A DNA stretch of 64,000 nt from Candidatus Coprovivens sp. GTDB taxonomy: Bacteria; Bacillota_I; Bacilli_A; RF39; UBA660. Positions 53,114-64,000 of this stretch are shown here, one piece after another (position 1 is the first letter of the stretch; each line of letters starts with the position of its first letter). The notes under the pieces were generated by a model, which was not told the origin of the DNA, searched no databases, and was given only the letters and a program-made list of their open reading frames with translations. The position numbers and the translations under genes were made by a program. The DNA is taken from contig JBJFGS010000031.1 in NCBI GenBank assembly GCA_051892935.1, forward strand, positions 1 through 64,000, given 5' to 3'.

Positions 53114-55243
53114 ATGATATTAATAATAGCTGAAAAACCATCACTAGCTAGAAATATAGTAAGTGCTATTGGTAATATGAAAAGAAATGATGGTTTTTAT
53201 TCTAATAATGAATACGTAGTATCATGGGCTTTTGGTCATCTATTTAGTTTGGCAGATATAGAAGACTATGAAGATAATCCTCCTAAAGAAGTAAGATGGA
53301 AAATGGATAACTTACCATGTTTTCCTAAAAAGTTTAAATTTAATTTAAAGAAAGACTCTAGTAAACAAGTAGATGCTGGAGTAATGAAACAATTTAATAT
53401 AATAAGTACTTTATGTAATAGAGAAGATGTAGTAAAAATCGTTAATGCTGGCGACTCTGATCGAGAAGGAGAAATAATAGTAAGACTATGTATTGAGAAT
53501 GCATTAAAAACTGAAAAAGAAATATATAGATTATGGTTACCAGATCAGACAAGTGAAACTATATCACAAGGTTTAAAAGAAATGAAGTTAGATAGTGAAT
53601 ATGATAATCTAGCTAATGAAGGATTTGCTAGAACATATATAGATTGGCTATATGGTGTTAATTTAACGAGGTATGCAACACTTAAAACAGGTACTTTGTT
53701 AAGGGTAGGTAGAGTAATTATTCCAATAGTAAAAGCAATCTATGATAGAGATATGGCAATAAGAAACTTTGTACCAGAGATGTACTATGGTATGTGGAGT
53801 AATGAAGAAACTAATGGTGAATTAGTTGAATTAAATAGTAAAGAAAAGTTTGATAAAAAAGATCAAAAAAGAGCACAAGAATTGTGCGATAAATATAATA
53901 GTGTAGATGCTATAGTTGTGGATAAAAAAGTAAAAAAAGATACAATGAATCCACCTAAGTTATTTTCTTTAACTAAATTACAAAATTTATTAGGTAAAAA
54001 ATATAAAATACCAATGGATAAGTCTTTAGAAGTAGTACAAAGATTATATGAAAATGGTTATTTAACATATCCAAGAACTAATTCGGAGTATTTAGCAGTA
54101 GCTGAGAAGGATAAAGTTAAAAAGATAATTGATAATATTAGTAAGATAGGGTATCCAGTTAAGTTTAAGGATAAGAAGACAATATTTGATGATAGTAAGA
54201 TTGAGTCACATTCAGCAATAACTCCAACATATAAGATTCCTAGTAAAGAAAGTTTAACTGAAGAGGAGTTCTTAATATATCAGACTGTATTTAAAAGATT
54301 TGTTGCAGTATTCTGTAGTGATGAATGTAAGGTAGAGAAGACTGAGATTAAGATTAGTGTTGGTGAGTATGAGGATTTTGTACTTAAAGGTATGACAATA
54401 GTAGAACCAGGATGGACAAAGTTCGATTCTCCTAGTAGTAAAGATAAGATACTACCTAATTTAAGCATTGGTGATAAAGTTAATACGTTATTTAAGTTAA
54501 AAGAAAAAGAAACTACTCCGCCAAAACATTATACAATAGAAACTTTGAATAATTACTTAATGAATCCTTTTAAGGAAGATAAGAAAGAATTAGATGAAAA
54601 GTACGAAGAGATGAAAGAAGCAGGGGAAGAAGTTGATGATACTGAAGATTATAAAGCAATATTTGAGGGATTAGAACTTGGTACAGAAGCAACAAGAACT
54701 GGTATTATAGATAATGCTAAAAAATCAGAGTACATTGCATTAAAGAAGGATGTTTATACGATATTGCCTGCAGGAGAATTCTTAATAAATTCTTTAATGC
54801 AAATGGAAATATCTATGGATAAATATAAGACAAGTGAGATGGGCAAAGCATTAAAGAAAGTTTATCATGATGAAATAAGTGTTTCTGATTCTGTAGATTT
54901 AGCAAAAAAAGAGATACAAGAAGTATTTACAAAGAAGGAAGTAGCTATAGAAAAAGATACTGATATTGGATTTTATGGTGATGTAGTTGGTAAGTGTCCA
55001 TTGTGTGGTAGTGATGTTATAAAGAATAGATATGCATATGGATGTAGAGACTATCAAAATTGTAAGTTTAAAATAAGTACGCAAATATGTGGTAGATGGA
55101 TATCTAAAAGTAATGTAGAAAAGTTACTAAGTGAGGGGATGACTTCTAATATTGAAGGATTTGTTTCAAAAAATGGTAAGAACTTTAATGCAAGACTTAA
55201 ATTAGATAGTGATAACAAGGTAGTGTTTGATTTTAGTAATTAA
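53114..55243 (+). CDS. topB: Type IA DNA topoisomerase III
   Basis: IAEKPS, AGDSDREGE, TYPRT, GTEATR, C-terminal Zn finger and GF.SK.GK.F.A repeat. Confidence 0.9.
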   Translation: MILIIAEKPSLARNIVSAIGNMKRNDGFYSNNEYVVSWAFGHLFSLADIEDYEDNPPKEVRWKMDNLPCFPKKFKFNLKKDSSKQVDAGVMKQFNIISTLCNREDVVKIVNAGDSDREGEIIVRLCIENALKTEKEIYRLWLPDQTSETISQGLKEMKLDSEYDNLANEGFARTYIDWLYGVNLTRYATLKTGTLLRVGRVIIPIVKAIYDRDMAIRNFVPEMYYGMWSNEETNGELVELNSKEKFDKKDQKRAQELCDKYNSVDAIVVDKKVKKDTMNPPKLFSLTKLQNLLGKKYKIPMDKSLEVVQRLYENGYLTYPRTNSEYLAVAEKDKVKKIIDNISKIGYPVKFKDKKTIFDDSKIESHSAITPTYKIPSKESLTEEEFLIYQTVFKRFVAVFCSDECKVEKTEIKISVGEYEDFVLKGMTIVEPGWTKFDSPSSKDKILPNLSIGDKVNTLFKLKEKETTPPKHYTIETLNNYLMNPFKEDKKELDEKYEEMKEAGEEVDDTEDYKAIFEGLELGTEATRTGIIDNAKKSEYIALKKDVYTILPAGEFLINSLMQMEISMDKYKTSEMGKALKKVYHDEISVSDSVDLAKKEIQEVFTKKEVAIEKDTDIGFYGDVVGKCPLCGSDVIKNRYAYGCRDYQNCKFKISTQICGRWISKSNVEKLLSEGMTSNIEGFVSKNGKNFNARLKLDSDNKVVFDFSN

Positions 55244-55483
55244 GATGACTAAATTTAAATAAATATTTTGGCTAGTTATTTTTGTTTAAAAGAGAAAAGT
55301 TAAACAAAAAAAGTACTAAATTTGATGGTTTAGTACTTTTAAAATGTTTAAAAAACAAGTTTAGTTTAAAGTCTTTTCTTAGATGAAATAGTGTATTAAA
55401 ATATTCTTTCGAGACGACTTAACTTAGATGTTTAAACCTTTAATTTCGAAAGAAAGAAGGTGGTCCTATGAAGGGAAAAATAC

Positions 55484-55549
55484 ATGGAATACTTAGTTAT
55501 TCTAGTAGTACTACTTGTTATTGTAGAAAAGACTTTCAGGGGAGAATAA
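55484..55549 (+). CDS. Putative type I toxin peptide MEYLVILVVLLVIVEKTFRGE (copy 1)
   Basis: 21 aa, single hydrophobic helix + charged tail; GAAGGG RBS; identical second copy. Confidence 0.6.
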   Translation: MEYLVILVVLLVIVEKTFRGE

Positions 55550-55650
55550 AAAAAGAGCAAACGAAAACATCTAATTGGAGTTAGATGTTTTCTCATGTTC
55601 AAATGGACTAAGAAACATCTGACTCTATTAAGACGTCTCTTTTTATATCC
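55548..55650 (-). ncRNA. Putative antisense antitoxin RNA (copy 1)
   Basis: Minus-strand TATAAT at 55657-55662; GAAAACATCTAA/TTAGATGTTTTC hairpin followed by U-rich tail. Confidence 0.5.
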
Positions 55651-55817
55651 ATTTATATTATACTATAAATAATGTAAAATAGTACTAAATATTTTTGTTT
55701 AGTGCTTTTTAAGTACTTAAAATAGAAGTTATAATTTCATATTGAAAAACTATAGATTAGTATAATTAATTTATAAGAAATAAAAAATTGTATGTTAGTA
55801 TGATATAATTTGTATAG

Positions 55818-56993
55818 GTGTTTTTTATGATAAAAGAAATATTTACAGAATTAATTTGTGAAGCCAAAGATGGAAAAGTTTTTATAGATGGTGAGGAATG
55901 GCCGATAGGTTTTAATACTGTTATATCAACTGATGGTCGTGAAGTCGTTTATAGAAATGAAAGGAATTTGTCTGAACTTATTATAAAAGATGAAGAAATC
56001 TTTCTAAAAGTATTAGAAGATTATGTTAATTTGGAGTTGTCTTATAAACGTAAAGTTCCTAGCTTTATTATGAATAAAGAGAGAAATACTATTAAATGGA
56101 TTATGGCTTACTTATTTGTTAATGCCACAACTGAAGATTTTATTAATCCTGTTTCTTATATGAAACGACGAATAGCTTTTTTGAATGATACAACATTTTC
56201 TTATTTAAATGAACCAGTTTCTTTGGAAATAGGGAATCACTTTTTAAATAGTTCTATTAAAATTCAAAATAGTATACATAGTATTGCGATGGAAACTCCT
56301 TATAGAATAGATATTTGTTTGGTAAATTCTATTGATAGTAAGGAAGTTTCTTATCCTTTAGCTACTGTTACTTATGGTATTTGTGAAGATAACGGCGAAA
56401 AAGTTTGTTATGTTTATAGCTTAATGAAACCTAAATCAAAAGTATCTACTGAAGAAGAAGCATATTATGATAAAAAAATAGCTCGTATGTTGTATAAATT
56501 AAATGAAGGTATAGAAAGTTATGAAGTTTCTGAATATTTCGATTATAAAGAAGGAAATTCAAAATATTATCCTGAGGGGAATATTACAGATGTAACTCCA
56601 TCGTTTATTTTATCTTTAAGTGTTTTTTTATCATTGTTGCAAAGAGAAGGTATTCATCATTTAAAAGCTATACCTTATTTGCCTGTTCGTTATTTATCTA
56701 GGGATATTATTGCTAGTGACGTTAAGGAAGAAGATACAAGGTATCAACTTAAACTACGAAATGATAAAATTCAAGAGAATATTACTAATAAGTTTATTAG
56801 AACATTTCGTAGAATAGCTTTTCATACTCCTGATGTAGAAGTTTTATCTGTACCTTATGAATTATCAGAGTATTTAGAATTAAATATAAAGGATAAGGAA
56901 CATATGATTAGTAATCCTATTTTAGAAGATGTTGCTGTAGCTGTTTATCAAATGGATGATAATATAAGAAAAGGATTTCATAAGAATTTTTAA
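55818..56993 (+). CDS. Hypothetical protein between the two TA-like modules
   Basis: 391-aa ORF with TGnTATAAT promoter and RBS. Confidence 0.75.
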   Translation: MFFMIKEIFTELICEAKDGKVFIDGEEWPIGFNTVISTDGREVVYRNERNLSELIIKDEEIFLKVLEDYVNLELSYKRKVPSFIMNKERNTIKWIMAYLFVNATTEDFINPVSYMKRRIAFLNDTTFSYLNEPVSLEIGNHFLNSSIKIQNSIHSIAMETPYRIDICLVNSIDSKEVSYPLATVTYGICEDNGEKVCYVYSLMKPKSKVSTEEEAYYDKKIARMLYKLNEGIESYEVSEYFDYKEGNSKYYPEGNITDVTPSFILSLSVFLSLLQREGIHHLKAIPYLPVRYLSRDIIASDVKEEDTRYQLKLRNDKIQENITNKFIRTFRRIAFHTPDVEVLSVPYELSEYLELNIKDKEHMISNPILEDVAVAVYQMDDNIRKGFHKNF

Positions 56994-57076
56994 AGCGAAA
57001 AAATATGAGGCTTTTCTTCGTTTTTGTTTGTGAATATATTAGTAAATTAATGTTTATAGGTTTTATAGTTCAGATG

Positions 57077-57171
57077 ATTGGTATGATATAATAAAAGTAT
57101 CTAATTATCTTTACATTTTTAGTCTTAAGCCTTTAGTTTTAATTATCTGTGTCAATATTAAGTGATATTAA
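57077..57171. ncRNA. Degenerate tracrRNA-like copy
   Basis: 57114-57171 aligns to the tracr anti-repeat + nexus region 57777-57830; 57077-57097 resembles 57709-57730. Confidence 0.55.
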
Positions 57172-57399
57172 ATAAAAAATAATAATTGTATTTTTTATGA
57201 ATAGATACGTAAAAAATCAAATAAAAAAGTACTAAAAAAAATTATTTAGTACTTTTTAAATTCGTAAAAAACTATTTTAGTTTTTCTGCTTTTCTTTAGT
57301 ATAATAATATATTAAAATAGTGCGTTGAGACGTTTAAATAGGTGTTTTTAAACCTTTATTTTCGAAAGAAAGAAGGTGGTCCTATGAAGGGAAAAATAC

Positions 57400-57465
57400 A
57401 TGGAATACTTAGTTATTCTAGTAGTACTACTTGTTATTGTAGAAAAGACTTTCAGGGGAGAATAA
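57400..57465 (+). CDS. Putative type I toxin peptide (copy 2, identical)
   Basis: Same 21-aa ORF. Confidence 0.6.
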   Translation: MEYLVILVVLLVIVEKTFRGE

Positions 57466-57566
57466 AAAAAGAGCAAACGAAAACATCTAATTGGAGTTAG
57501 ATGTTTTCCGACGTTCAATTGGACCAAGAAACATCTGACTCTATTAAGACGTCTCTTTTTATATCC
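57464..57566 (-). ncRNA. Putative antisense antitoxin RNA (copy 2)
   Basis: Minus-strand TGnTATAAT (57573-57581) and the same terminator hairpin. Confidence 0.5.
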
Positions 57567-57737
57567 ATTTATATTATATCATAATTATATTTGTTTTTGT
57601 TATAGTTTTAAATATTTAATAGTATATGGTTAAAATATATTTATTCTTAATATTAATTTTGTATATTTCTTTTTACCAATAAATACCAATAATGTTATAA
57701 TACAAGTAATTGGTGATGATATGAAAAACGATGACAT

Positions 57738-57835
57738 AAAAAAAGACGGCTAACCGTCCGAAACACATATTGTGAGCATTTAGGCTTAAAGCTTTATTTT
57801 AACTCTCTATGTCATCTTAAATGGTATTAAGACAA
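57738..57835 (-). ncRNA. tracrRNA
   Basis: 25-nt perfect anti-repeat (57806-57830), GTTAAAATAA lower stem/nexus, GACGG/CCGTC-T7 terminator, TTGACT-17-TAGTAT promoter overlapping the cas9 RBS. Confidence 0.92.
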
Positions 57836-57869
57836 CTTAATACTAACAAAAAAATGGAGGTAAGTCAAT

Positions 57870-60800
57870 ATGAATAAAAAATATAATATAGGTCTTGATA
57901 TAGGAACTACATCTGTTGGTTGGGCTGTAGTTGAGTCAGATACACAAAAAATTATAAGAAAAGGAAAAGGAAAAAATCGTAAAGCACTTTGGGGTGTTAG
58001 ACTTTTTGAGGAGGCTTCAACTGCTGAAGGAAGACGAAGCTTCAGAAGTACAAGACGTAGATACGATAGAAGAAGAAATCGAATTAAGTTGTTACAAGAG
58101 GAATTTAAAAATGAAATGAATAATGTAGATCGTGATTTCTTTAAAAAATTAGAAGAATCAAAATATCATGTGACTGATAAGTTTAATAAAACAGTTGTAT
58201 TAACAGCAGAAGAGAAAAAAATGATTCGCGAGTATAATAATCAATACAAAACTATATATCATTTAAGAAGTCGTTTAATTAATGACGATAGTAAAGCTGA
58301 TATTAGATTGGTTTATTTAGCAATTCATCATATTATTAAATATCGAGGAAACTTTTTATATGCTGTTGATAATTTTAATGTTAGTAGTTTAAACATAGAA
58401 GAAAAAATAAGAGAAGTAATGTATTCCTTTGTTAATCTTGTTCCTGCATTAGGAATATCAGATGATTATGAAAATATTGTAAGCATTAATAAAATATCAC
58501 AAATAATGATTAATCCTTCTAAAAATGATGTAAAAGTAGAATTAAGAGAGGTATTAAAAGATTTTTGCAATAGTAATAAATTTGCAACAGAATTTTGTAA
58601 AATGATTGTTGGAAATAAATTTAATTTAAAAGATTTATTTGCTTTAGAAGAAATTAATAAATTACAAATTAGTTTTGATGGTACTGATTATGATGATAAA
58701 TACGAAGAACTAGAAAATATATTAGGAGATAAAATTGAAACTTTAGATTTATTAAAACAATTATATGATACGTTATTCTTGAAAAAACTATTTAAAGGTA
58801 AAACTAATGTAAGTTTATCAGAATTAATGGTAGACAAATATAATCAACATAAAAATGATTTAAGCTTATTAAAGCAATTATTTAGATATGATAGAAAAAA
58901 ATATAACTTAATATTTAGAAGTGTGACTGCAAGAAAAAAAGATAATAACCATACTGAAAGAAAAGAGTATATTTGCTATTATGAACAATATATACACAAT
59001 AAAATTTCTTTTTATGATTTAAGTAAAGAATTAGACAAATATATTCCTGATTTATTAGAATTAGCTGATTTAGAAATTTGTCAAAAATGGAATAGTATTA
59101 AAGAAAGGTATGCAAATGGAGATTTTTTACCAAGAATTACTGATTCAGATAATGGGAAATATCCATATCAATTAAATAAAGATGAGTTAGTTAAAATAAT
59201 TGAAAATCAAGGTAAATATTATCCATTCTTATTAAACGAAGTAAATGATAAGTATAGAATTGTTAAATTACTAGAATTTAAAATTCCTTATTATGTTGGA
59301 CCTTTAGTTTCTGATAAAAAAAGTGATTTTGCTTGGATGGAAAGAATAACACCTAATGTAAAGATTACTCCTTTTAATTTTGATGATGTTGTTGATAAAG
59401 AAACTACTGCCGAGAAATTTATAAAAAGAATGATATCTCATTGTTCTTATTTATTAGATGAGTATGCTTTACCAAATAATTCTATATTGTATTCTAGATA
59501 TAAAGTTATGAATGAATTAAAACAAATTAAAGTTAATGGTAATAAAATTCCTATTGATATTCAACATAAGATATTAAACGATTATTTTATGAAAACATCA
59601 GGTACTATTACAGATAATAAGTTTAAAAGTTATTTAAGAACTTTACCTGATTTTGGTATGTACGAAAATGATATTAATGTTACTGGTTATTCGGCAGATG
59701 GTCAATTTGCTAATAATATGCAATCTTTTGTAGATTTCTTTGGAGAGAATGGAATATTTGAAAGTACTTCGTATAACGAAGAAGATGCTGATCAGATTAT
59801 TGAATGGATTACAATATTCGATGATAAAGATGTATTGGAAAAAAAGGTTAGAAAAGAGTATAACGAGTTGGGTGAATTTAGCATTAAAAAGATAGTAAGT
59901 AAAAAATATTCTGGATGGGGAAGTTTATCTAAAAAATTATTATGTACACCTTATTATAAAGATAGGAAGTCAGGAATTAGTAAATCAATATTGGATTTGA
60001 TGTATGAAACAGAAGATAATTTTATGCAAATAATTAATAATGATGAATACAAATTTCAAGGATTGATAAAAGAAGAAAATGTTATTAAAGATACAACAAA
60101 AATAAATTATGATTTAGTTAAAGGATTGGCAACATCACCTTCTACTAAAAAAGGAATATATCAAGCCTTAAAAGTAGTAGATGAAATTGTTGATTATATG
60201 GGATATGAACCTGAAAATATCATGATTGAAATGTCAAGAAATGAAGATAAAAAAGAACGCAAGGATGATAGAAAAAAATATCTAACTAAGTTATATGATA
60301 AATTTAAAGAAGAAATTAACAATTATTCTCAATTGTCTTTAGAGCTAGATGATTTAGATAAAATTGATACAACTAGATTGTTTTTGTATTTTATTCAAGA
60401 AGGTAAATGTTTGTATACAGGAAAACCATTAAATGTGGATGATTTAAGTAGTTATGAAATAGATCATATAATACCAAGAACGTTAATTAAGGATGATTCT
60501 CTTGATAATAAGGCGTTAGTTTTAAGAGAGTGTAATCAGACAAAAAAAGATAGTTTTGTTCTTCCATCTATGTATAATACATTTGAAAATAGAAAATGGT
60601 GGCAACATTTAAAAAAAATTGGATTAATGTCTGCTAAAAAATTTCACAATTTAATTAGAACTGAATATAGTGATGAGGATATTCAAGATTTTATTAATAG
60701 ACAATTAGTTGAAACGAGACAAATAACAAAGCATGTTGCTAATATTCTAAATAATTTTTATGAAAATACAAAAATTGTATATTTAAAGGCAAATTTATCT

Positions 60801-61943
60801 CATAATTATCGTGAAAGATATGAATTATTTAAATTTAGAGAAATAAATGATTATCATCACGCTCATGATGCTTATTTAGCAGCAGTATTAGGTGAGTATA
60901 AAGAAAAATATATGACTAGAAACGTTAATTATGAAATGATGCGTGAATTAAATTCAAGGATTAAAAGTTCTGGTAATTACAAAAAATTTAATTATGGTTT
61001 TGTAATTAATAGCTTAGATAATGAAATAAATGATTGTATTTATGAATTATCTAAAAATATGATTAATAAAGATACTGGTGAATTATTATTTGATTCTGAT
61101 AAATTCAATAAAATAGTAGAAGATACTTTATACCGAAATGATATTTTAATTAGTAGAAAGACTGAAATTAGGAGCGGAGAGTTCTATAATCAAACTAAAC
61201 AAAAAAAGGGTGGCAAAGGTGTGCCTTTAAAAGGCAATATGCCGATTGAATTATATGGAAGTTATACTAGTTTAAATCCTTCTTATGCTGTAATGGTTAG
61301 TTATACTAAAAAAGGTAAAGAAAATAGAAAAATGGTTGGATATCCTATGTATTTTAATGGAAAAGCTGAAGAAGATAAAATATTATATTATAAAACTCTT
61401 TTAGGTTTAAATGAAAATGATAATGTTGAGATTTATGATAAGAAAATACCTTTTTACTCATTAATAAATTGGAATAATCAGGCGTGTTATTTAGTTGGGG
61501 CATCAGACAATGTAGAAGTATGTAATTCTAAACAGTTTAAATATTCAAAAGAGTTTATGAAAAAAAATAAATATTCTTTTAATGTTTTATTTAATGGAGC
61601 AAAATATGATGATGAAGAAAACTATAGTAAATCTTTAGATGAAATAATTAATTATATTGTTAATAGATTTGAAAAAGATTATGTTTTGTTTAGTAATTTA
61701 GTAGTAGAGTTAAAAAAGATTGTTAGTTATGGTGATTATTCTGTGTTTAATGTTCAGGAAAAAGAGAATATAATTAAACAACTTACCTTATTACTAAATT
61801 GTAGAAGTGATAATGCAAATTTCAAATTTTTAAATGATAAGTATTCAAGTGCGTTTGGTAAGAAAAATGATCGTATAATAGAAAGTTGTTTTGTATCTAA
61901 TTTATCTGTAACAGGGTTAAAGGAAAGTAAGCATGAGTTTTAG
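57870..61943 (+). CDS. cas9: Type II-A CRISPR nuclease Cas9
   Basis: GLDIGTTSVGWA RuvC-I, Arg-rich bridge helix, IPYYVGPL, EIDHIIP HNH, HHAHDAYL. Confidence 0.98.
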   Translation: MNKKYNIGLDIGTTSVGWAVVESDTQKIIRKGKGKNRKALWGVRLFEEASTAEGRRSFRSTRRRYDRRRNRIKLLQEEFKNEMNNVDRDFFKKLEESKYHVTDKFNKTVVLTAEEKKMIREYNNQYKTIYHLRSRLINDDSKADIRLVYLAIHHIIKYRGNFLYAVDNFNVSSLNIEEKIREVMYSFVNLVPALGISDDYENIVSINKISQIMINPSKNDVKVELREVLKDFCNSNKFATEFCKMIVGNKFNLKDLFALEEINKLQISFDGTDYDDKYEELENILGDKIETLDLLKQLYDTLFLKKLFKGKTNVSLSELMVDKYNQHKNDLSLLKQLFRYDRKKYNLIFRSVTARKKDNNHTERKEYICYYEQYIHNKISFYDLSKELDKYIPDLLELADLEICQKWNSIKERYANGDFLPRITDSDNGKYPYQLNKDELVKIIENQGKYYPFLLNEVNDKYRIVKLLEFKIPYYVGPLVSDKKSDFAWMERITPNVKITPFNFDDVVDKETTAEKFIKRMISHCSYLLDEYALPNNSILYSRYKVMNELKQIKVNGNKIPIDIQHKILNDYFMKTSGTITDNKFKSYLRTLPDFGMYENDINVTGYSADGQFANNMQSFVDFFGENGIFESTSYNEEDADQIIEWITIFDDKDVLEKKVRKEYNELGEFSIKKIVSKKYSGWGSLSKKLLCTPYYKDRKSGISKSILDLMYETEDNFMQIINNDEYKFQGLIKEENVIKDTTKINYDLVKGLATSPSTKKGIYQALKVVDEIVDYMGYEPENIMIEMSRNEDKKERKDDRKKYLTKLYDKFKEEINNYSQLSLELDDLDKIDTTRLFLYFIQEGKCLYTGKPLNVDDLSSYEIDHIIPRTLIKDDSLDNKALVLRECNQTKKDSFVLPSMYNTFENRKWWQHLKKIGLMSAKKFHNLIRTEYSDEDIQDFINRQLVETRQITKHVANILNNFYENTKIVYLKANLSHNYRERYELFKFREINDYHHAHDAYLAAVLGEYKEKYMTRNVNYEMMRELNSRIKSSGNYKKFNYGFVINSLDNEINDCIYELSKNMINKDTGELLFDSDKFNKIVEDTLYRNDILISRKTEIRSGEFYNQTKQKKGGKGVPLKGNMPIELYGSYTSLNPSYAVMVSYTKKGKENRKMVGYPMYFNGKAEEDKILYYKTLLGLNENDNVEIYDKKIPFYSLINWNNQACYLVGASDNVEVCNSKQFKYSKEFMKKNKYSFNVLFNGAKYDDEENYSKSLDEIINYIVNRFEKDYVLFSNLVVELKKIVSYGDYSVFNVQEKENIIKQLTLLLNCRSDNANFKFLNDKYSSAFGKKNDRIIESCFVSNLSVTGLKESKHEF

Positions 61944-62805
61944 GACAGTTGTTATTACAAAACAATCAAAAATTAGTTATAAAAATAAATTTTTGGTTGT
62001 AAAACAAGATAACGATGAAAAATATGTTCATCTATCAGAGATAGATACGATAATAGTAGATTCTATATCTGTATCTATTTCTGCCTATCTTTTAAAGGAA
62101 TTATCTGATAATAAAATAAACATTATATTTTGTGATGAGAAACATAATCCTTTTGGAGAATTGTCTTCGTATTATTCCAGGCATAATACTAGTAAAAAGA
62201 TAAAAGAGCAGATAGCATGGAAGCAATCTGATAAAGATAAATTATGGTCAAAGTTAGTAAGAAATAAAATTGTTAATCAAGCTATGTTATTGAGGAAGAT
62301 TAATTCTGAAAAATTTGAATTAGTTTTGAGCTATGCGGATGAAGTTGTTAATGGAGATAAGACAAATCGAGAAGGACATTCAGCTAAAGTTTATTTCAAT
62401 GCTTTATTTGGTATGGATTTTGTTAGAAATGAGTCTGATGATATTAATGCGGCATTGAACTATGGTTATGCTATATTATTATCTACGGTAAATAAAGAAG
62501 TTGTTTCAAATGGTTATTTAACGCAATTAGGTGTTCATCATAAAAATGAATTTAATGAATTTAATTTAACTTGCGATTTGATGGAACCTTTTAGAGTTAT
62601 CATTGATAATTTTGTATATTTTAACCAAGGTAGGAAATTAGATACTAATTATAAATTAGATATTGTTAATATTTTTAATAATACGTATAAGTATCAAGGT
62701 AAAAATTATGTATTGAAAGATATTATAAAAATGTTTGTAAAAAATACTTTGAGCTCAGTAGAAGATTTGGATAGTTATAAGGAATTTGTATATTATGAGG
62801 GATAG
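61933..62805 (+). CDS. cas1: Type II Cas1
   Basis: NREGHSAKVYF, NAALNYGY, DLMEPFR. Confidence 0.97.
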   Translation: MSFRTVVITKQSKISYKNKFLVVKQDNDEKYVHLSEIDTIIVDSISVSISAYLLKELSDNKINIIFCDEKHNPFGELSSYYSRHNTSKKIKEQIAWKQSDKDKLWSKLVRNKIVNQAMLLRKINSEKFELVLSYADEVVNGDKTNREGHSAKVYFNALFGMDFVRNESDDINAALNYGYAILLSTVNKEVVSNGYLTQLGVHHKNEFNEFNLTCDLMEPFRVIIDNFVYFNQGRKLDTNYKLDIVNIFNNTYKYQGKNYVLKDIIKMFVKNTLSSVEDLDSYKEFVYYEG

Positions 62806-63115
62806 AGTTATGAGAACGATAGTATTTTTTGATTTACCAAATATTTATGCAAAAGACAAAAGAAATTATTTGAAATTTAGAAAATATTTAATAAATGAAG
62901 GTTTTATAATGATGCAAGAATCGGTTTATTCAAAAATTGTGTTGAACTCTCAACAATCTGAATTTCTAGTAGATAGATTAAAAAAGAATGCTCCCAAAAA
63001 AGGATTAATTCAAGTTTTAACGATTACGGAAAAACAATATGCTCAAATAGAATATATTATTGGTCAAAGCAATTCAAAAATCGTGGATAGTGAAGATAGG
63101 TTGATTGTACTATGA
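62786..63115 (+). CDS. cas2: Cas2
   Basis: FFDLP, GFIMMQESVY, ITEKQY. Confidence 0.96.
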   Translation: MYIMRDRVMRTIVFFDLPNIYAKDKRNYLKFRKYLINEGFIMMQESVYSKIVLNSQQSEFLVDRLKKNAPKKGLIQVLTITEKQYAQIEYIIGQSNSKIVDSEDRLIVL

Positions 63116-63786
63116 ATGTAATAGTCGAATATTTTGATAATATAATAAATTTAAAATTAGATGGTGTTAATGTTGTGGAAATAGAAAATAAAAAGTATTT
63201 TTATAGATTTGTTAATGATCTTTTTTCTATTTGTAATGATGGCTTTGCTGATGATATTACTTTTTTCGAAGAAGAACTAGAAAAAAATATGAATGGAAAA
63301 CTTAAGGTATTTGTTGATTTTTTTGATTTTCAGTTTGATTCCAAAAAATATATTAATGATGTTAGTAAATATGTTAATGAAAATATTGATGATGAAGATA
63401 AAAATGATTTGTTTAATTTGTATAATAGAATTATCAAAGTTTATAAAAAACTATTGAATAGTGTAGATTTACCATTATCTGTAGAAAGTGAAGTTTCAGT
63501 TGATACAATTACAAAATTAGTTAAAGTTAATATTAACTCTAAAGTAGAGTTGTTGGATAATTTGTTTTTATTGGTTGATTTAGAAAAAGTTTTAAAAACT
63601 AATAATTTATTGATATTTATTAACTTAAAGCAATACTTAACAAGAAATGAACTAGTTGAATTATATAAATATGCCATTTACAATAATATTCAATTATTAT
63701 TAGTAGACTCACAGTCGTATGGTGGTACTTTAGAATATGAAAAAAAGCTTATAATAGATGAAAATCTAGATGAATTTATGATATAA
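63112..63786 (+). CDS. csn2: Csn2 (type II-A)
   Basis: 224 aa after cas2; FINLKQYL, IIDENLDE. Confidence 0.92.
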   Translation: MNVIVEYFDNIINLKLDGVNVVEIENKKYFYRFVNDLFSICNDGFADDITFFEEELEKNMNGKLKVFVDFFDFQFDSKKYINDVSKYVNENIDDEDKNDLFNLYNRIIKVYKKLLNSVDLPLSVESEVSVDTITKLVKVNINSKVELLDNLFLLVDLEKVLKTNNLLIFINLKQYLTRNELVELYKYAIYNNIQLLLVDSQSYGGTLEYEKKLIIDENLDEFMI

Positions 63787-63868
63787 TTAGTGTGATATGA
63801 CATAGAAAATACCATTTATAAAACATTAAATTCTCTATGGTAATGTTGATATAGATCTAAAATTTGAG

Positions 63869-64000
63869 GTTTTAGGTCTATGTCATCTTAAATGGTATTA
63901 AAACGTAAAGATAAAATAATTTCTATAACTATATGTTTTAGGTCTATGTCATCTTAAATGGTATTAAAACTGATATAGACTATTCAAAACATACCTTAAA
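63869..64000 (+). CRISPR. Start of CRISPR array: 36-nt repeat GTTTTAGGTCTATGTCATCTTAAATGGTATTAAAAC x2, two 30-nt spacers (continues past window)
   Basis: Repeats at 63869-63904 and 63935-63970; ATTTGAG leader-anchoring sequence. Confidence 0.96.

What the first reader, a model, noticed from the sequence alone, without database searches (positions are those of the whole stretch)
57077..57253. Second, degenerate tracrRNA-like sequence with its own plus-strand promoter: possible anti-tracr or scaRNA-like regulator
Seen: 57114-57171 (CATTTTTAGTCTTAAGCCTTTAGTTTTAATTATCTGTGTCAATATTAAGTGATATTAA) aligns to the tracr locus 57777-57830 (CATTTAGGCTTAAAGCTTTATTTTAACTCTCTATGTCATCTTAAATGGTATTAA) across both anti-repeat and nexus. 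A TGnTATAAT at 57084-57092 points into it on the + strand, and a hairpin-T run lies at 57228-57257. This would give a ~155-nt RNA complementary to tracrRNA; three of the anti-repeat substitutions keep G-U pairing in that orientation. Inference: either a repeat-mimic RNA that binds tracrRNA/Cas9 (cf. Francisella scaRNA, crRNA-like regulators) or a decayed duplicate. The similarity extending to the tracr flank (57077-57097 vs 57709-57730) fits the duplicate explanation.
Basis: partly seen in the sequence, partly recalled or inferred. Interest (0 to 1): 0.7.

Follow-up and report, generated by a model that had tools for sequence, protein, structure and literature searches.

The report
Decayed tracrRNA relic beside live CRISPR-Cas9
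The second tracrRNA-like stretch is real, but it looks like a decaying leftover of an older CRISPR-Cas9 locus that was lost by recombination, not a working regulatory RNA.

Summary
Window 57114-57171 aligns to the tracr locus 57777-57830 at 43 of 54 columns, and 0 of 1000 shuffles reach that score. The promoter side, the nexus side and the repeat-like side are each significant on their own.

The functional reading has no support. The stretch is a chimera:
- Its left part matches the region upstream of cas9: a conserved + strand TGnTATAAT promoter, the tracr terminator with its G/C pairs mutated to A/T, the nexus and the anti-repeat.
- Its right part matches the trailer that follows the last CRISPR repeat, including a 280-nt block identical to that trailer.

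This is what recombination between the tracr anti-repeat and the terminal repeat would leave after deleting cas9-csn2 and the array. A relative (G019) has gene X directly followed by tracr-cas9. Another (G017) has gene X directly followed by the downstream MscS-like gene. G004 keeps an orphan tracr and no cas9 was found.

The relic differs at 7 of 38 positions invariant in 14 functional tracr loci. It scores 17.7 bits against 102.1 for the live tracr, and has no copy outside this species.

Best reading: a non-functional fossil of CRISPR-Cas loss and regain. Interest is low to moderate.

The parts
55307..55671 (+). Copy 1 of a repeated ~365-bp type I toxin-antitoxin-like element (TA1), between the topoisomerase gene and gene X
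   Evidence: 87% identical to 57223-57587; aligned with the other copies
55818..56993 (+). Gene X, 391 aa, no known family. In relative G019 its homologue lies directly upstream of tracr-cas9
   Evidence: ORF; no Pfam or PADLOC family; found in 13 of 27 genus genomes, G019 at 63% identity; G019 context read
57063..57092 (+). Relic of the conserved + strand promoter that precedes tracr loci. The extended -10 TGATATAAT at 57084-57092 is kept; the -35 is lost
   Evidence: Aligned with the TGnTATAAT of 5 of 5 genus tracr loci; similarity on this side reached by 6 of 2000 shuffles; not listed by the promoter scan
57093..57113 (-). Decayed remnant of the tracrRNA terminator. AAAAGTATCTAATTATC stands where live loci have AAAGACGGCTAACCGTC
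   Evidence: MAFFT alignment A1; 17 G/C-to-A/T changes against 6 the other way across the relic, GC 0.20 against 0.32; the - strand fold has no terminator, -5.3 kcal/mol
57114..57136 (-). Nexus-like segment of the relic
   Evidence: (7 of 2000 shuffles)
57137..57171 (.). Anti-repeat / terminal-repeat-like segment. It has the longer bulge form of the tracr locus and stands where the last CRISPR repeat stands relative to the trailer
   Evidence: 0 of 2000; 7 of 38 invariant positions changed, plus two inserted bases
57172..57183 (+). Diverged first bases of the array trailer
   Evidence: right flank against the trailer 0 of 1000 shuffles; against the tracr right flank 39 of 1000
57184..57463 (+). 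280-nt block identical to the trailer and TA copy after the CRISPR array (TA3). It marks a recent recombination or gene-conversion tract
   Evidence: every window is 30/30 from 57184 to 57453, and identity runs on to 57463
57219..57262 (.). It is part of the repeated element and also follows the topoisomerase gene and the CRISPR array
   Evidence: I6
57296..57562 (+). TA2 candidate toxin mRNA: TAGTATAAT, 5' GAGACG pairing with 3' CGTCTC plus a T run, and a 21-codon hydrophobic ORF at 57400-57465 (MEYLVILVVLLVIVEKTFRGE)
   Evidence: (I17). That the ORF frame is conserved through synonymous or conservative changes in G006 and G004 was read by eye
57672..57701 (+). Conserved + strand promoter (TTTACC/TTACCA, then TG-T-TATAAT) upstream of the live tracr gene. 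It is probably the cas operon promoter, reading antisense through tracr
   Evidence: conservation (5 of 5) and by eye (9 of 10 with TGnTA[T/A]AAT). Its function is inferred
57737..57834 (-). Live tracrRNA gene: anti-repeat, nexus, hairpin and terminator
   Evidence: Covariance model 102.1 bits; terminator 57759-57744; duplex with the repeat -38.4 kcal/mol
57840..57868 (-). tracrRNA promoter TTGACT-17-TAGTAT. Its -35 abuts the cas9 start codon
57870..63786 (+). cas9, cas1, cas2, csn2 (type II-A)
63869..64000 (+). Start of the CRISPR array. It runs to C31:65686, with 28 identical 36-nt repeats and 27 spacers of 30 nt, followed by the trailer and TA3

Best explanation
57063-57183 is a non-functional, decaying fossil of an earlier copy of this type II-A locus.

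Its left part comes from the region that normally precedes cas9: the + strand promoter, then on the - strand the tracrRNA terminator, nexus and anti-repeat. Its right part is the trailer that follows the last CRISPR repeat.

The most likely origin is homologous recombination between the tracr anti-repeat and the terminal repeat of the array. On the + strand the anti-repeat reads like a CRISPR repeat. Such an event deletes cas9-cas1-cas2-csn2 and all spacers, and leaves promoter, terminator, nexus, a hybrid repeat and the trailer downstream of gene X.

A working tracr-cas9-array unit was later regained just downstream. This probably happened by recombination in the trailer/TA-like repeat, which now brackets the live unit as two ~445-bp direct repeats.

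Since then the relic has drifted toward A/T and has lost its terminator stem, its native promoter and several invariant positions.

What is shown: the chimeric homology, the decay, the arrangements in relatives and the 280-nt identical tract. What is inferred: the order of events, the recombination partners and the lack of function.
For: - **Chimera.** The left part matches the tracr-locus left side (6 of 1000 shuffles reach it) but not the DNA left of the last repeat (247 of 1000). The right part matches the array trailer (0 of 1000). BLAST in the same genome gives 57134-57579 = C31:65649-66091 at 93%.
- **Tracr origin of the left part.** The bulge region has the tracr-locus length, not the repeat's.
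- **Decay.**
  - 17 G/C-to-A/T changes against 6 the other way; GC 0.20 against 0.32.
  - The terminator GACGGCTAACCGTC now reads GTATCTAATTATC.
  - 7 of 38 columns invariant in 14 cas9-linked tracr loci are changed, and two bases are inserted.
  - nhmmer gives 11.0 bits against 72-106 for genus tracr loci.
  - The covariance model gives 17.7 bits (E 0.083) against 102.1 for the live tracr, which is below the CRISPR repeats themselves at 36.4 and 27.2.
- **Context in relatives.**
  - G019 has topoisomerase, gene X, promoter, tracr, cas9.
  - G006 has topoisomerase, TA, promoter, tracr, cas9.
  - G017 has gene X followed directly by the MscS-like gene, an empty site.
  - G004 has TA, promoter and an intact tracr, with no cas9 found in a 93%-complete genome.
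- **Recent recombination at the site.** 57184-57463 is identical to the trailer/TA3 copy. The 3' part of TA2 resembles TA1 instead.
- **Not conserved beyond the species.**
  - No match to the relic part in 40 other genomes.
  - 10 of 10 further species have one tracr upstream of cas9 and no second copy at E<=10.
  - The 24-mer was not found in the genome or metagenome collections.
- **Present in other strains.** Contigs at about 95-96% identity hold it: X1 covers 55768-57578 and X4 covers 56663-57317.
Against: - Expression was not tested. The extended -10 TGATATAAT survives, and such promoters can work without a -35, so a + strand RNA of about 165 nt ending at the 57219-57262 hairpin may well be made.
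- That RNA could still pair with tracrRNA in silico: -27.6 kcal/mol, against a shuffle null of -8.7 +/- 2.6.
- The relic persists in strains about 5% diverged. Neutral DNA would persist too, and the listing was cut, so I could not see where their differences fall.
- The first 12 nt of the trailer side are A-rich and diverged, so the exact junction is uncertain.
- The recent conversion tract may have overwritten older sequence to its right.
- The orphan tracr in G004 keeps a tracr-type right flank. It shows loss of cas9 with tracr left behind, but not this same recombination.
- No CRISPR-less allele (gene X, relic, trailer, MscS-like gene) was observed.
Confidence: 0.68

Rival explanations
1. 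It is a relic, but made by another route. The promoter-tracr region was duplicated and decayed, and the trailer/TA-like repeat was inserted or converted next to it independently. No anti-repeat x terminal-repeat crossover took place.
For: - The TA-like element is repeated three times and is mosaic, so it moves or converts readily.
- The identical tract starts only at 57184, and the 12 nt before it are low-complexity.
- The G004 orphan tracr was left behind by a deletion with a different right breakpoint.
Against: - The repeat-like segment ends where the terminal repeat ends relative to the trailer. BLAST carries the array-end homology through the repeat, from 57134.
- The right flank fits the trailer (0 of 1000 shuffles) better than the tracr right flank (39 of 1000).
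- No trace of the tracr promoter or cas9 start follows the relic's anti-repeat.
Confidence: 0.18
2. It is a functional + strand RNA. Transcription from TGATATAAT (57084-57092) to the 57219-57262 hairpin gives a repeat-mimic RNA that pairs with tracrRNA. It then acts as a decoy or sponge, or as a crRNA-like guide that makes Cas9 bind without cutting, as with scaRNA, tracr-L or CreA.
For: - An extended -10 survives.
- The predicted duplex with the tracr anti-repeat is -27.6 kcal/mol, against a null of -8.7 +/- 2.6. The + orientation pairs better than the - orientation, which gives -22.1.
- The relic is kept in strains about 5% diverged.
Against: - The pairing is what homology leaves, and it is 10.8 kcal/mol weaker than each of the 28 true repeats.
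- If the conserved promoter at 57672-57701 drives cas9, its leader is already a perfect antisense of tracrRNA at -168.6 kcal/mol.
- The 12-nt guide-end CTTAAGCCTTTA has no other site in the genome.
- Only 3 of 4 transitions keep wobble pairs.
- There is no copy in relatives.
- The substitution pattern is drift toward A/T.
Confidence: 0.08
3. It is a functional second tracrRNA on the - strand, transcribed from the TTTACG-17-TACAAT match at 57213-57185.
For: - A promoter-like site faces it.
- The covariance model aligns it end to end with tracrRNA, at 17.7 bits, the best non-CRISPR hit after the live gene.
- Alternate tracrRNAs within Cas9 loci have been suggested (passage read in bioRxiv 10.1101/2020.09.02.279885).
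Against: - It has no terminator hairpin, and the whole - strand folds at only -5.3 kcal/mol.
- The nexus and anti-repeat are changed at 7 of 38 invariant positions, plus two insertions.
- The duplex with the repeat is -22.1 against -38.4 kcal/mol.
- The native tracr promoter that overlaps the cas9 start is gone.
Confidence: 0.03

Closest known systems
Orphan or degenerate CRISPR-Cas remnants, and array collapse by homologous recombination between repeats
   Same: Repeat-like sequences serve as substrates for homologous recombination that removes CRISPR content. Array collapse by repeat-repeat recombination is described in a passage I read in PMC12477760. The remnant then decays.
   Different: Here one partner is the tracr anti-repeat, so the whole cas operon and array are removed, and a promoter-terminator-nexus-hybrid repeat-trailer scar is left. 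My searches (over CC-licensed PMC and bioRxiv only) found no paper describing such a scar.
S. pyogenes tracr-L (natural single-guide RNA that represses the cas promoter) and Francisella scaRNA
   Same: These are non-canonical tracr- or crRNA-like RNAs encoded beside cas9 that use Cas9 for regulation. They are mentioned in a passage I read in PMC12477760; the details are recalled.
   Different: Those RNAs have an intact Cas9-binding scaffold and a guide that matches an endogenous target. The relic has a decayed scaffold, and its guide-like end has no target elsewhere in the genome.
Alternate or second tracrRNAs predicted within Cas9 loci
   Same: A second tracr-like sequence lies in or near a type II locus (passage read in bioRxiv 10.1101/2020.09.02.279885).
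   Different: Those candidates score as homologues of working tracrRNAs. This one scores 17.7 bits against 102.1 and lacks a terminator.
Type I toxin-antitoxin modules adjacent to CRISPR arrays in Clostridioides difficile
   Same: A small hydrophobic ORF, with signs of an antisense RNA, sits directly beside the CRISPR array and the cas locus (title and start of abstract of PMC5961336 seen).
   Different: This concerns the neighbouring repeat, not the relic itself. It is a different organism (an uncultured gut Bacilli) and a type II-A rather than type I-B system. The 21-aa peptide is untested.

Membership tests
Functional type II-A tracrRNA | Anti-repeat complementary to the CRISPR repeat | tested here: inconclusive
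   The duplex with the repeat is -22.1 kcal/mol, against -38.4 for the live tracr and a null of -7.2 +/- 2.5. Pairing is partial, with mismatches and an inserted base.
Functional type II-A tracrRNA | Conserved nexus and anti-repeat positions | tested here: not met
   7 of 38 columns invariant in 14 cas9-linked tracr loci are changed, and there are 2 insertions. The covariance model gives 17.7 bits against 102.1.
Functional type II-A tracrRNA | 3' hairpin(s) and a Rho-independent terminator | tested here: not met
   The stem G/C pairs are mutated to A/T. No terminator is listed at the relic. The - strand folds at -5.3 kcal/mol.
Functional type II-A tracrRNA | Own promoter on the tracr strand | tested here: inconclusive
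   The native TTGACT-17-TAGTAT promoter, which overlaps the cas9 start, is missing. Only a consensus match in the trailer (57213-57185) faces the relic.
crRNA-like Cas9 regulator (scaRNA / tracr-L / CreA-type logic) | Degenerate repeat able to pair with tracrRNA | tested here: met
   -27.6 kcal/mol in silico, with 0 of 1000 shuffles as low. Homology alone would give this.
crRNA-like Cas9 regulator (scaRNA / tracr-L / CreA-type logic) | Guide segment with a partial match to an endogenous target | tested here: not met
   The 12-mer next to the pseudo-repeat occurs only at the relic itself in the 1.81-Mb assembly. Shorter or mismatched seeds, and the PAM, were not tested.
crRNA-like Cas9 regulator (scaRNA / tracr-L / CreA-type logic) | Expressed and bound by Cas9 | not testable with these tools
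   No RNA run was listed for this DNA.
crRNA-like Cas9 regulator (scaRNA / tracr-L / CreA-type logic) | Conserved with the cas9 locus in relatives | tested here: not met
   No match to the relic part in 40 other genomes. No second tracr-like hit upstream of cas9 in 10 of 10 further species.
Type I toxin-antitoxin (the adjacent repeated element, not the relic) | Short hydrophobic ORF under purifying selection | tested here: met
   The 21-codon ORF 57400-57465 is kept in 3 own copies and in G006 and G004, with synonymous or conservative changes. The overlapping 38-codon frame changes radically (alignment, codons read by eye).
Type I toxin-antitoxin (the adjacent repeated element, not the relic) | Antisense antitoxin RNA; toxicity of the peptide | not testable with these tools
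   Only consensus sites are available: a - strand promoter at 57612-57584 and a - strand terminator at 57508-57479.

The most novel reading that the evidence does not exclude
The fossil has been put to use. The surviving extended -10 promoter makes a ~165-nt + strand RNA whose degenerate repeat still pairs with tracrRNA. This RNA would titrate tracrRNA/Cas9, or load as a non-cleaving crRNA-like guide, and so tune CRISPR-Cas9 activity. It would be a chromosomal counterpart of crRNA decoys and of tracr-L/scaRNA-type regulation, born from a deletion scar.
Probability: 0.07. Interest if true: 0.7.

Novelty: new variant of a known kind. Interest (0 to 1): 0.3.

Why it matters
As a regulator it would have been interesting, but the evidence points to a fossil. 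The modest value is evolutionary:
- The tracr anti-repeat can act as an extra CRISPR repeat in recombination, which gives a one-step route to losing cas9, the adaptation genes and the whole array.
- The scar, the empty site in G017, the orphan tracr in G004 and the live unit bracketed by ~445-bp direct repeats together record loss and regain of CRISPR-Cas9 at one chromosomal slot in uncultured gut Bacilli.
- It is a caution for annotation pipelines that call second tracrRNAs or regulatory crRNA-like RNAs from sequence similarity alone.

Tried and rejected
- **Rfam at E<=1 over 55000-64000.** Nothing at the relic. There were only sub-threshold CRISPR-DR22 hits on the repeats and the anti-repeat, and a sub-threshold sau-19 hit on the TA1 hairpin.
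- **Other copies in public collections.** Gene X in metagenome contigs gave 91 pattern stretches but 0 relatives. The 24-mer of the pseudo-repeat gave 0 in genome contigs and 0 in metagenome contigs. Records of the window's own genome, or ones very near it, may be left out of those scans.
- **Expression.** No RNA holder was listed.
- **Laying contigs of 4 DNA runs.**
  - The list of differing letters was cut (164 not shown), so I could not compare divergence inside the relic with its flanks.
  - A joint in X5 (57025 to 57424, skipping 398, side of 34 letters, at 85% likeness) might be an allele lacking the relic. It is too weak to use.
  - Contigs break at the 30-mer shared by the TA copies.
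- **Guide-target idea.** The 12-mer seed is unique in the genome.
- **The G-U argument.** Only 4 transitions, 3 of them wobble-compatible on the + strand.
- **Gene X.** No Pfam or PADLOC family.
- **Earlier notes of this scan.** There were none near the finding.
- **Literature.** Searches for a tracr x repeat recombination scar, an orphan tracrRNA or a tracrRNA pseudogene found no such description. Only CC-licensed PMC and bioRxiv were searched, and supplements were not seen.

Full report
**Setting**

The window is contig C31:1-64000 of a 1.81-Mb, 53-contig assembly. GC is 26%. Its Cas9 relatives carry titles such as 'uncultured Bacilli bacterium' and 'Clostridium sp. CAG:451'. An earlier, unchecked note of this scan names the genome Candidatus Coprovivens (I only looked the name up).

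The locus is a type II-A CRISPR-Cas system:
- cas9 at 57870-61943, cas1, cas2 and csn2.
- An array of 28 identical 36-nt repeats and 27 spacers of 30 nt, from 63869 to C31:65686.
- The live tracrRNA gene on the - strand at 57737-57834. Its promoter, TTGACT-17-TAGTAT, abuts the cas9 start codon. Its terminator is at 57759-57744. Its anti-repeat pairs with the repeat at -38.4 kcal/mol.

- 57114-57171 aligns with 57777-57830 at 43/54 columns, score 49. Shuffles gave 20.1 +/- 2.7 with a maximum of 32, so 0 of 1000 reached it. No other part of the 64 kb, apart from the CRISPR array, exceeds 30.
- The promoter/flank side (6 of 2000), the nexus side (7 of 2000) and the repeat-like side (0 of 2000) are each unusual on their own, and they are collinear.
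- TGATATAAT at 57084-57092 and the hairpin at 57219-57262 are present.

A search of the organism's own genome shows that 57134-57579 is 93% identical to C31:65649-66091, which is the last CRISPR repeat plus the DNA after the array. It also shows that 57223-57587 is 87% identical to 55307-55671.

The repeat-like half of the finding therefore stands exactly where the terminal repeat stands relative to the array trailer.

A column-by-column comparison shows a sharp mosaic:
- Left of 57184 the two copies agree at only 14/30, 19/30 and 23/30 per window.
- 57184-57463 is identical (280 nt).
- After that, identity drops to 23-29/30.
- The 3' part of this copy resembles copy 1 instead.

The relic is therefore old, and it lies next to a recent recombination or gene-conversion tract.

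**Chimeric origin**

- The left part of the relic (57050-57136) matches the left part of the tracr locus (6 of 1000 shuffles) but not the DNA left of the last repeat (247 of 1000).
- The right part (57172-57200) matches the trailer (0 of 1000) better than the tracr right flank (39 of 1000).
- In the bulge region the relic has the tracr-locus length (TTTTAA + 4 + TCT), not the shorter form of the repeat.
- The multiple alignment with the tracr loci of four relatives lines up three features:
  - TGATATAAT with a + strand TGnTATAA[T/C] present in 5 of 5 genus loci. By eye, 9 of 10 further species have TGnTA[T/A]AAT.
  - AAAAGTATCTAATTATC with the terminator AAAGACGGCTAACCGTC.
  - The nexus and the anti-repeat.

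That promoter probably drives the cas operon through the tracr gene in antisense, which is an inference.

**Decay**

- Across the relic there are 17 G/C-to-A/T changes against 6 the other way. GC is 0.20, against 0.32 for the live gene.
- Among 14 cas9-linked tracr loci, whose Cas9 proteins are only 55-72% identical to this one, 38 core columns are invariant. The relic differs at 7 of them and has two inserted bases.
- A profile of five genus tracr loci gives the relic 11.0 bits (E 0.065), against 72-106 bits for those loci.
- A covariance model of the 14 loci gives 17.7 bits (E 0.083, 57088-57175, - strand). The live gene, which was part of the training set, gives 102.1. The reverse-complemented CRISPR repeats give 36.4 and 27.2. 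The next background hit gives 11.9.
- The - strand has no terminator and folds at -5.3 kcal/mol.

**Relatives**

- G019 has topoisomerase, gene X (63% identical), promoter, tracr, cas9, with no repeated element.
- G006 has topoisomerase, repeated element, promoter, tracr, cas9.
- G017 has a broken gene X followed after about 150 nt by the homologue of the MscS-like gene that follows the array here (20/30 identical, E 9e-11). This is an empty site.
- G004 has the repeated element, the promoter and an intact tracr gene, but no cas9 beside it and none found in the 93%-complete genome. Its right flank is tracr-like, so it shows loss of cas9 with the tracr left behind. It does not show the same crossover.
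- The relic part has no match in the 40 other genomes searched.
- 10 of 10 further species show a single tracr hit within at most 3 kb upstream of cas9, and no second hit at E<=10.
- Contigs from other metagenomes, about 95-96% identical, do carry the relic between gene X and the repeated element: X1 covers 55768-57578 with 88 differences and 5 gaps, and X4 covers 56663-57317 with 24 differences.

**Most likely history (inferred)**

1. An ancestor carried gene X, promoter, tracr, cas9 through to the array, trailer and the MscS-like gene, as in G019.
2. Recombination between the anti-repeat and the terminal repeat deleted the cas genes and the array. This left promoter, terminator, nexus, hybrid repeat and trailer.
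3. A G006-like unit (repeated element, promoter, tracr, cas, array, trailer, repeated element) was regained by recombination in the repeated element. That element now brackets the live unit as ~445-bp direct repeats.
4. The scar drifted toward A/T.

Repeat-repeat recombination that collapses arrays is documented (passage read in PMC12477760). I found no description of an anti-repeat x repeat scar, and those searches were limited to CC-licensed PMC and bioRxiv.

**Functional rivals**

- A + strand RNA could still pair with tracrRNA at -27.6 kcal/mol (null -8.7 +/- 2.6). That is leftover homology.
  - It is weaker than each of the 28 true repeats.
  - It is dwarfed by the perfect antisense that the cas9 leader would provide (-168.6).
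- The wobble argument rests on 3 of 4 transitions.
- The guide-like 12-mer has no other site in the genome.
- A - strand 'second tracrRNA' lacks a terminator, its native promoter and invariant positions.
- Expression remains untested because no RNA holder was listed. For that reason I keep about 0.1 for some function.

**The neighbouring repeat**

It looks like a type I toxin-antitoxin module:
- A promoter TAGTATAAT.
- A 5' GAGACG that can pair with a 3' CGTCTC plus a T run (I17).
- A 21-codon hydrophobic ORF at 57400-57465, kept by synonymous and conservative changes in G006 and G004, while the overlapping 38-codon frame is not kept (read by eye).
- A convergent - strand promoter (57612-57584) and terminator (57508-57479).

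Type I TA modules beside CRISPR arrays are known in C. difficile (PMC5961336; title and start of abstract seen).

**Verdict**

The feature is real and the finding is explained. It is a decaying tracr/array-trailer fusion scar, not a demonstrated regulator. Interest is low to moderate, mainly as a record of CRISPR-Cas9 loss and regain.

Noticed in passing
window 55307-55671, 57223-57587; C31:65737-66091 (L002 ~1589-1943): There are three copies of a type I toxin-antitoxin-like element flanking gene X and the CRISPR-Cas unit. Each has a conserved 21-aa hydrophobic ORF (57400-57465 in copy 2), 5'-3' end pairing (GAGACG/CGTCTC) and a convergent - strand promoter and terminator. Copy 2 is a mosaic: its 5' part is identical to copy 3 and its 3' part is like copy 1. 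G006 and G004 have one copy upstream of their tracr loci.
   Followed up: partly
window 57134-57579 and C31:65649-66091: The whole live tracr-cas9-cas1-cas2-csn2-array unit is bracketed by ~445-bp direct repeats (93% identical, including a 280-nt identical block). A single homologous crossover could therefore excise it.
   Followed up: partly
L012 (G004:C134) ~1317-1412, - strand as fetched: An orphan but apparently intact tracr gene (97 bits with the genus profile). It has its upstream promoter and TA-like element, but no cas9 beside it and none found in the 93%-complete genome. A second copy of the promoter region precedes the next gene, which by my recollection is NERD-like and was not tested.
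   Followed up: partly
window 57672-57701; L010, L011, L012, L022; L040-L049 upstream of cas9: A + strand extended -10 promoter is conserved upstream of the tracr terminator in 5 of 5 genus loci and, by eye, in 9 of 10 further species. If it drives cas9, the cas9 leader is a full antisense of tracrRNA. In L042, L048 and L049 a short hairpin plus T run lies between this promoter and the tracr gene, which could be a leader or attenuator.
   Followed up: no
window 57840-57870: The -35 box of the tracrRNA promoter (TTGACT on the - strand) directly abuts the cas9 start codon and overlaps its ribosome-binding region. The same arrangement is seen in relatives (by eye). Transcription of tracr and translation or transcription of cas9 may therefore interfere with each other.
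   Followed up: no
L027 (G017:C246) 1-330: In G017 a broken gene X homologue is followed directly by the MscS-like gene that follows the CRISPR array here. This is an empty version of the CRISPR-Cas slot.
   Followed up: yes
window 55818-56993: Gene X (391 aa) has no Pfam or PADLOC family. It occurs in 13 of 27 genus genomes, sometimes with paralogues, and is the left neighbour of the CRISPR-Cas slot in G000, G019 and G017.
   Followed up: partly
window 57213-57185 and the identical copy after the array (C31 ~65700-65728): A - strand promoter-like site (TTTACG-17-TACAAT) in the array trailer would read antisense into the last repeat of the CRISPR array, and at the relic into the pseudo-repeat.
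   Followed up: no
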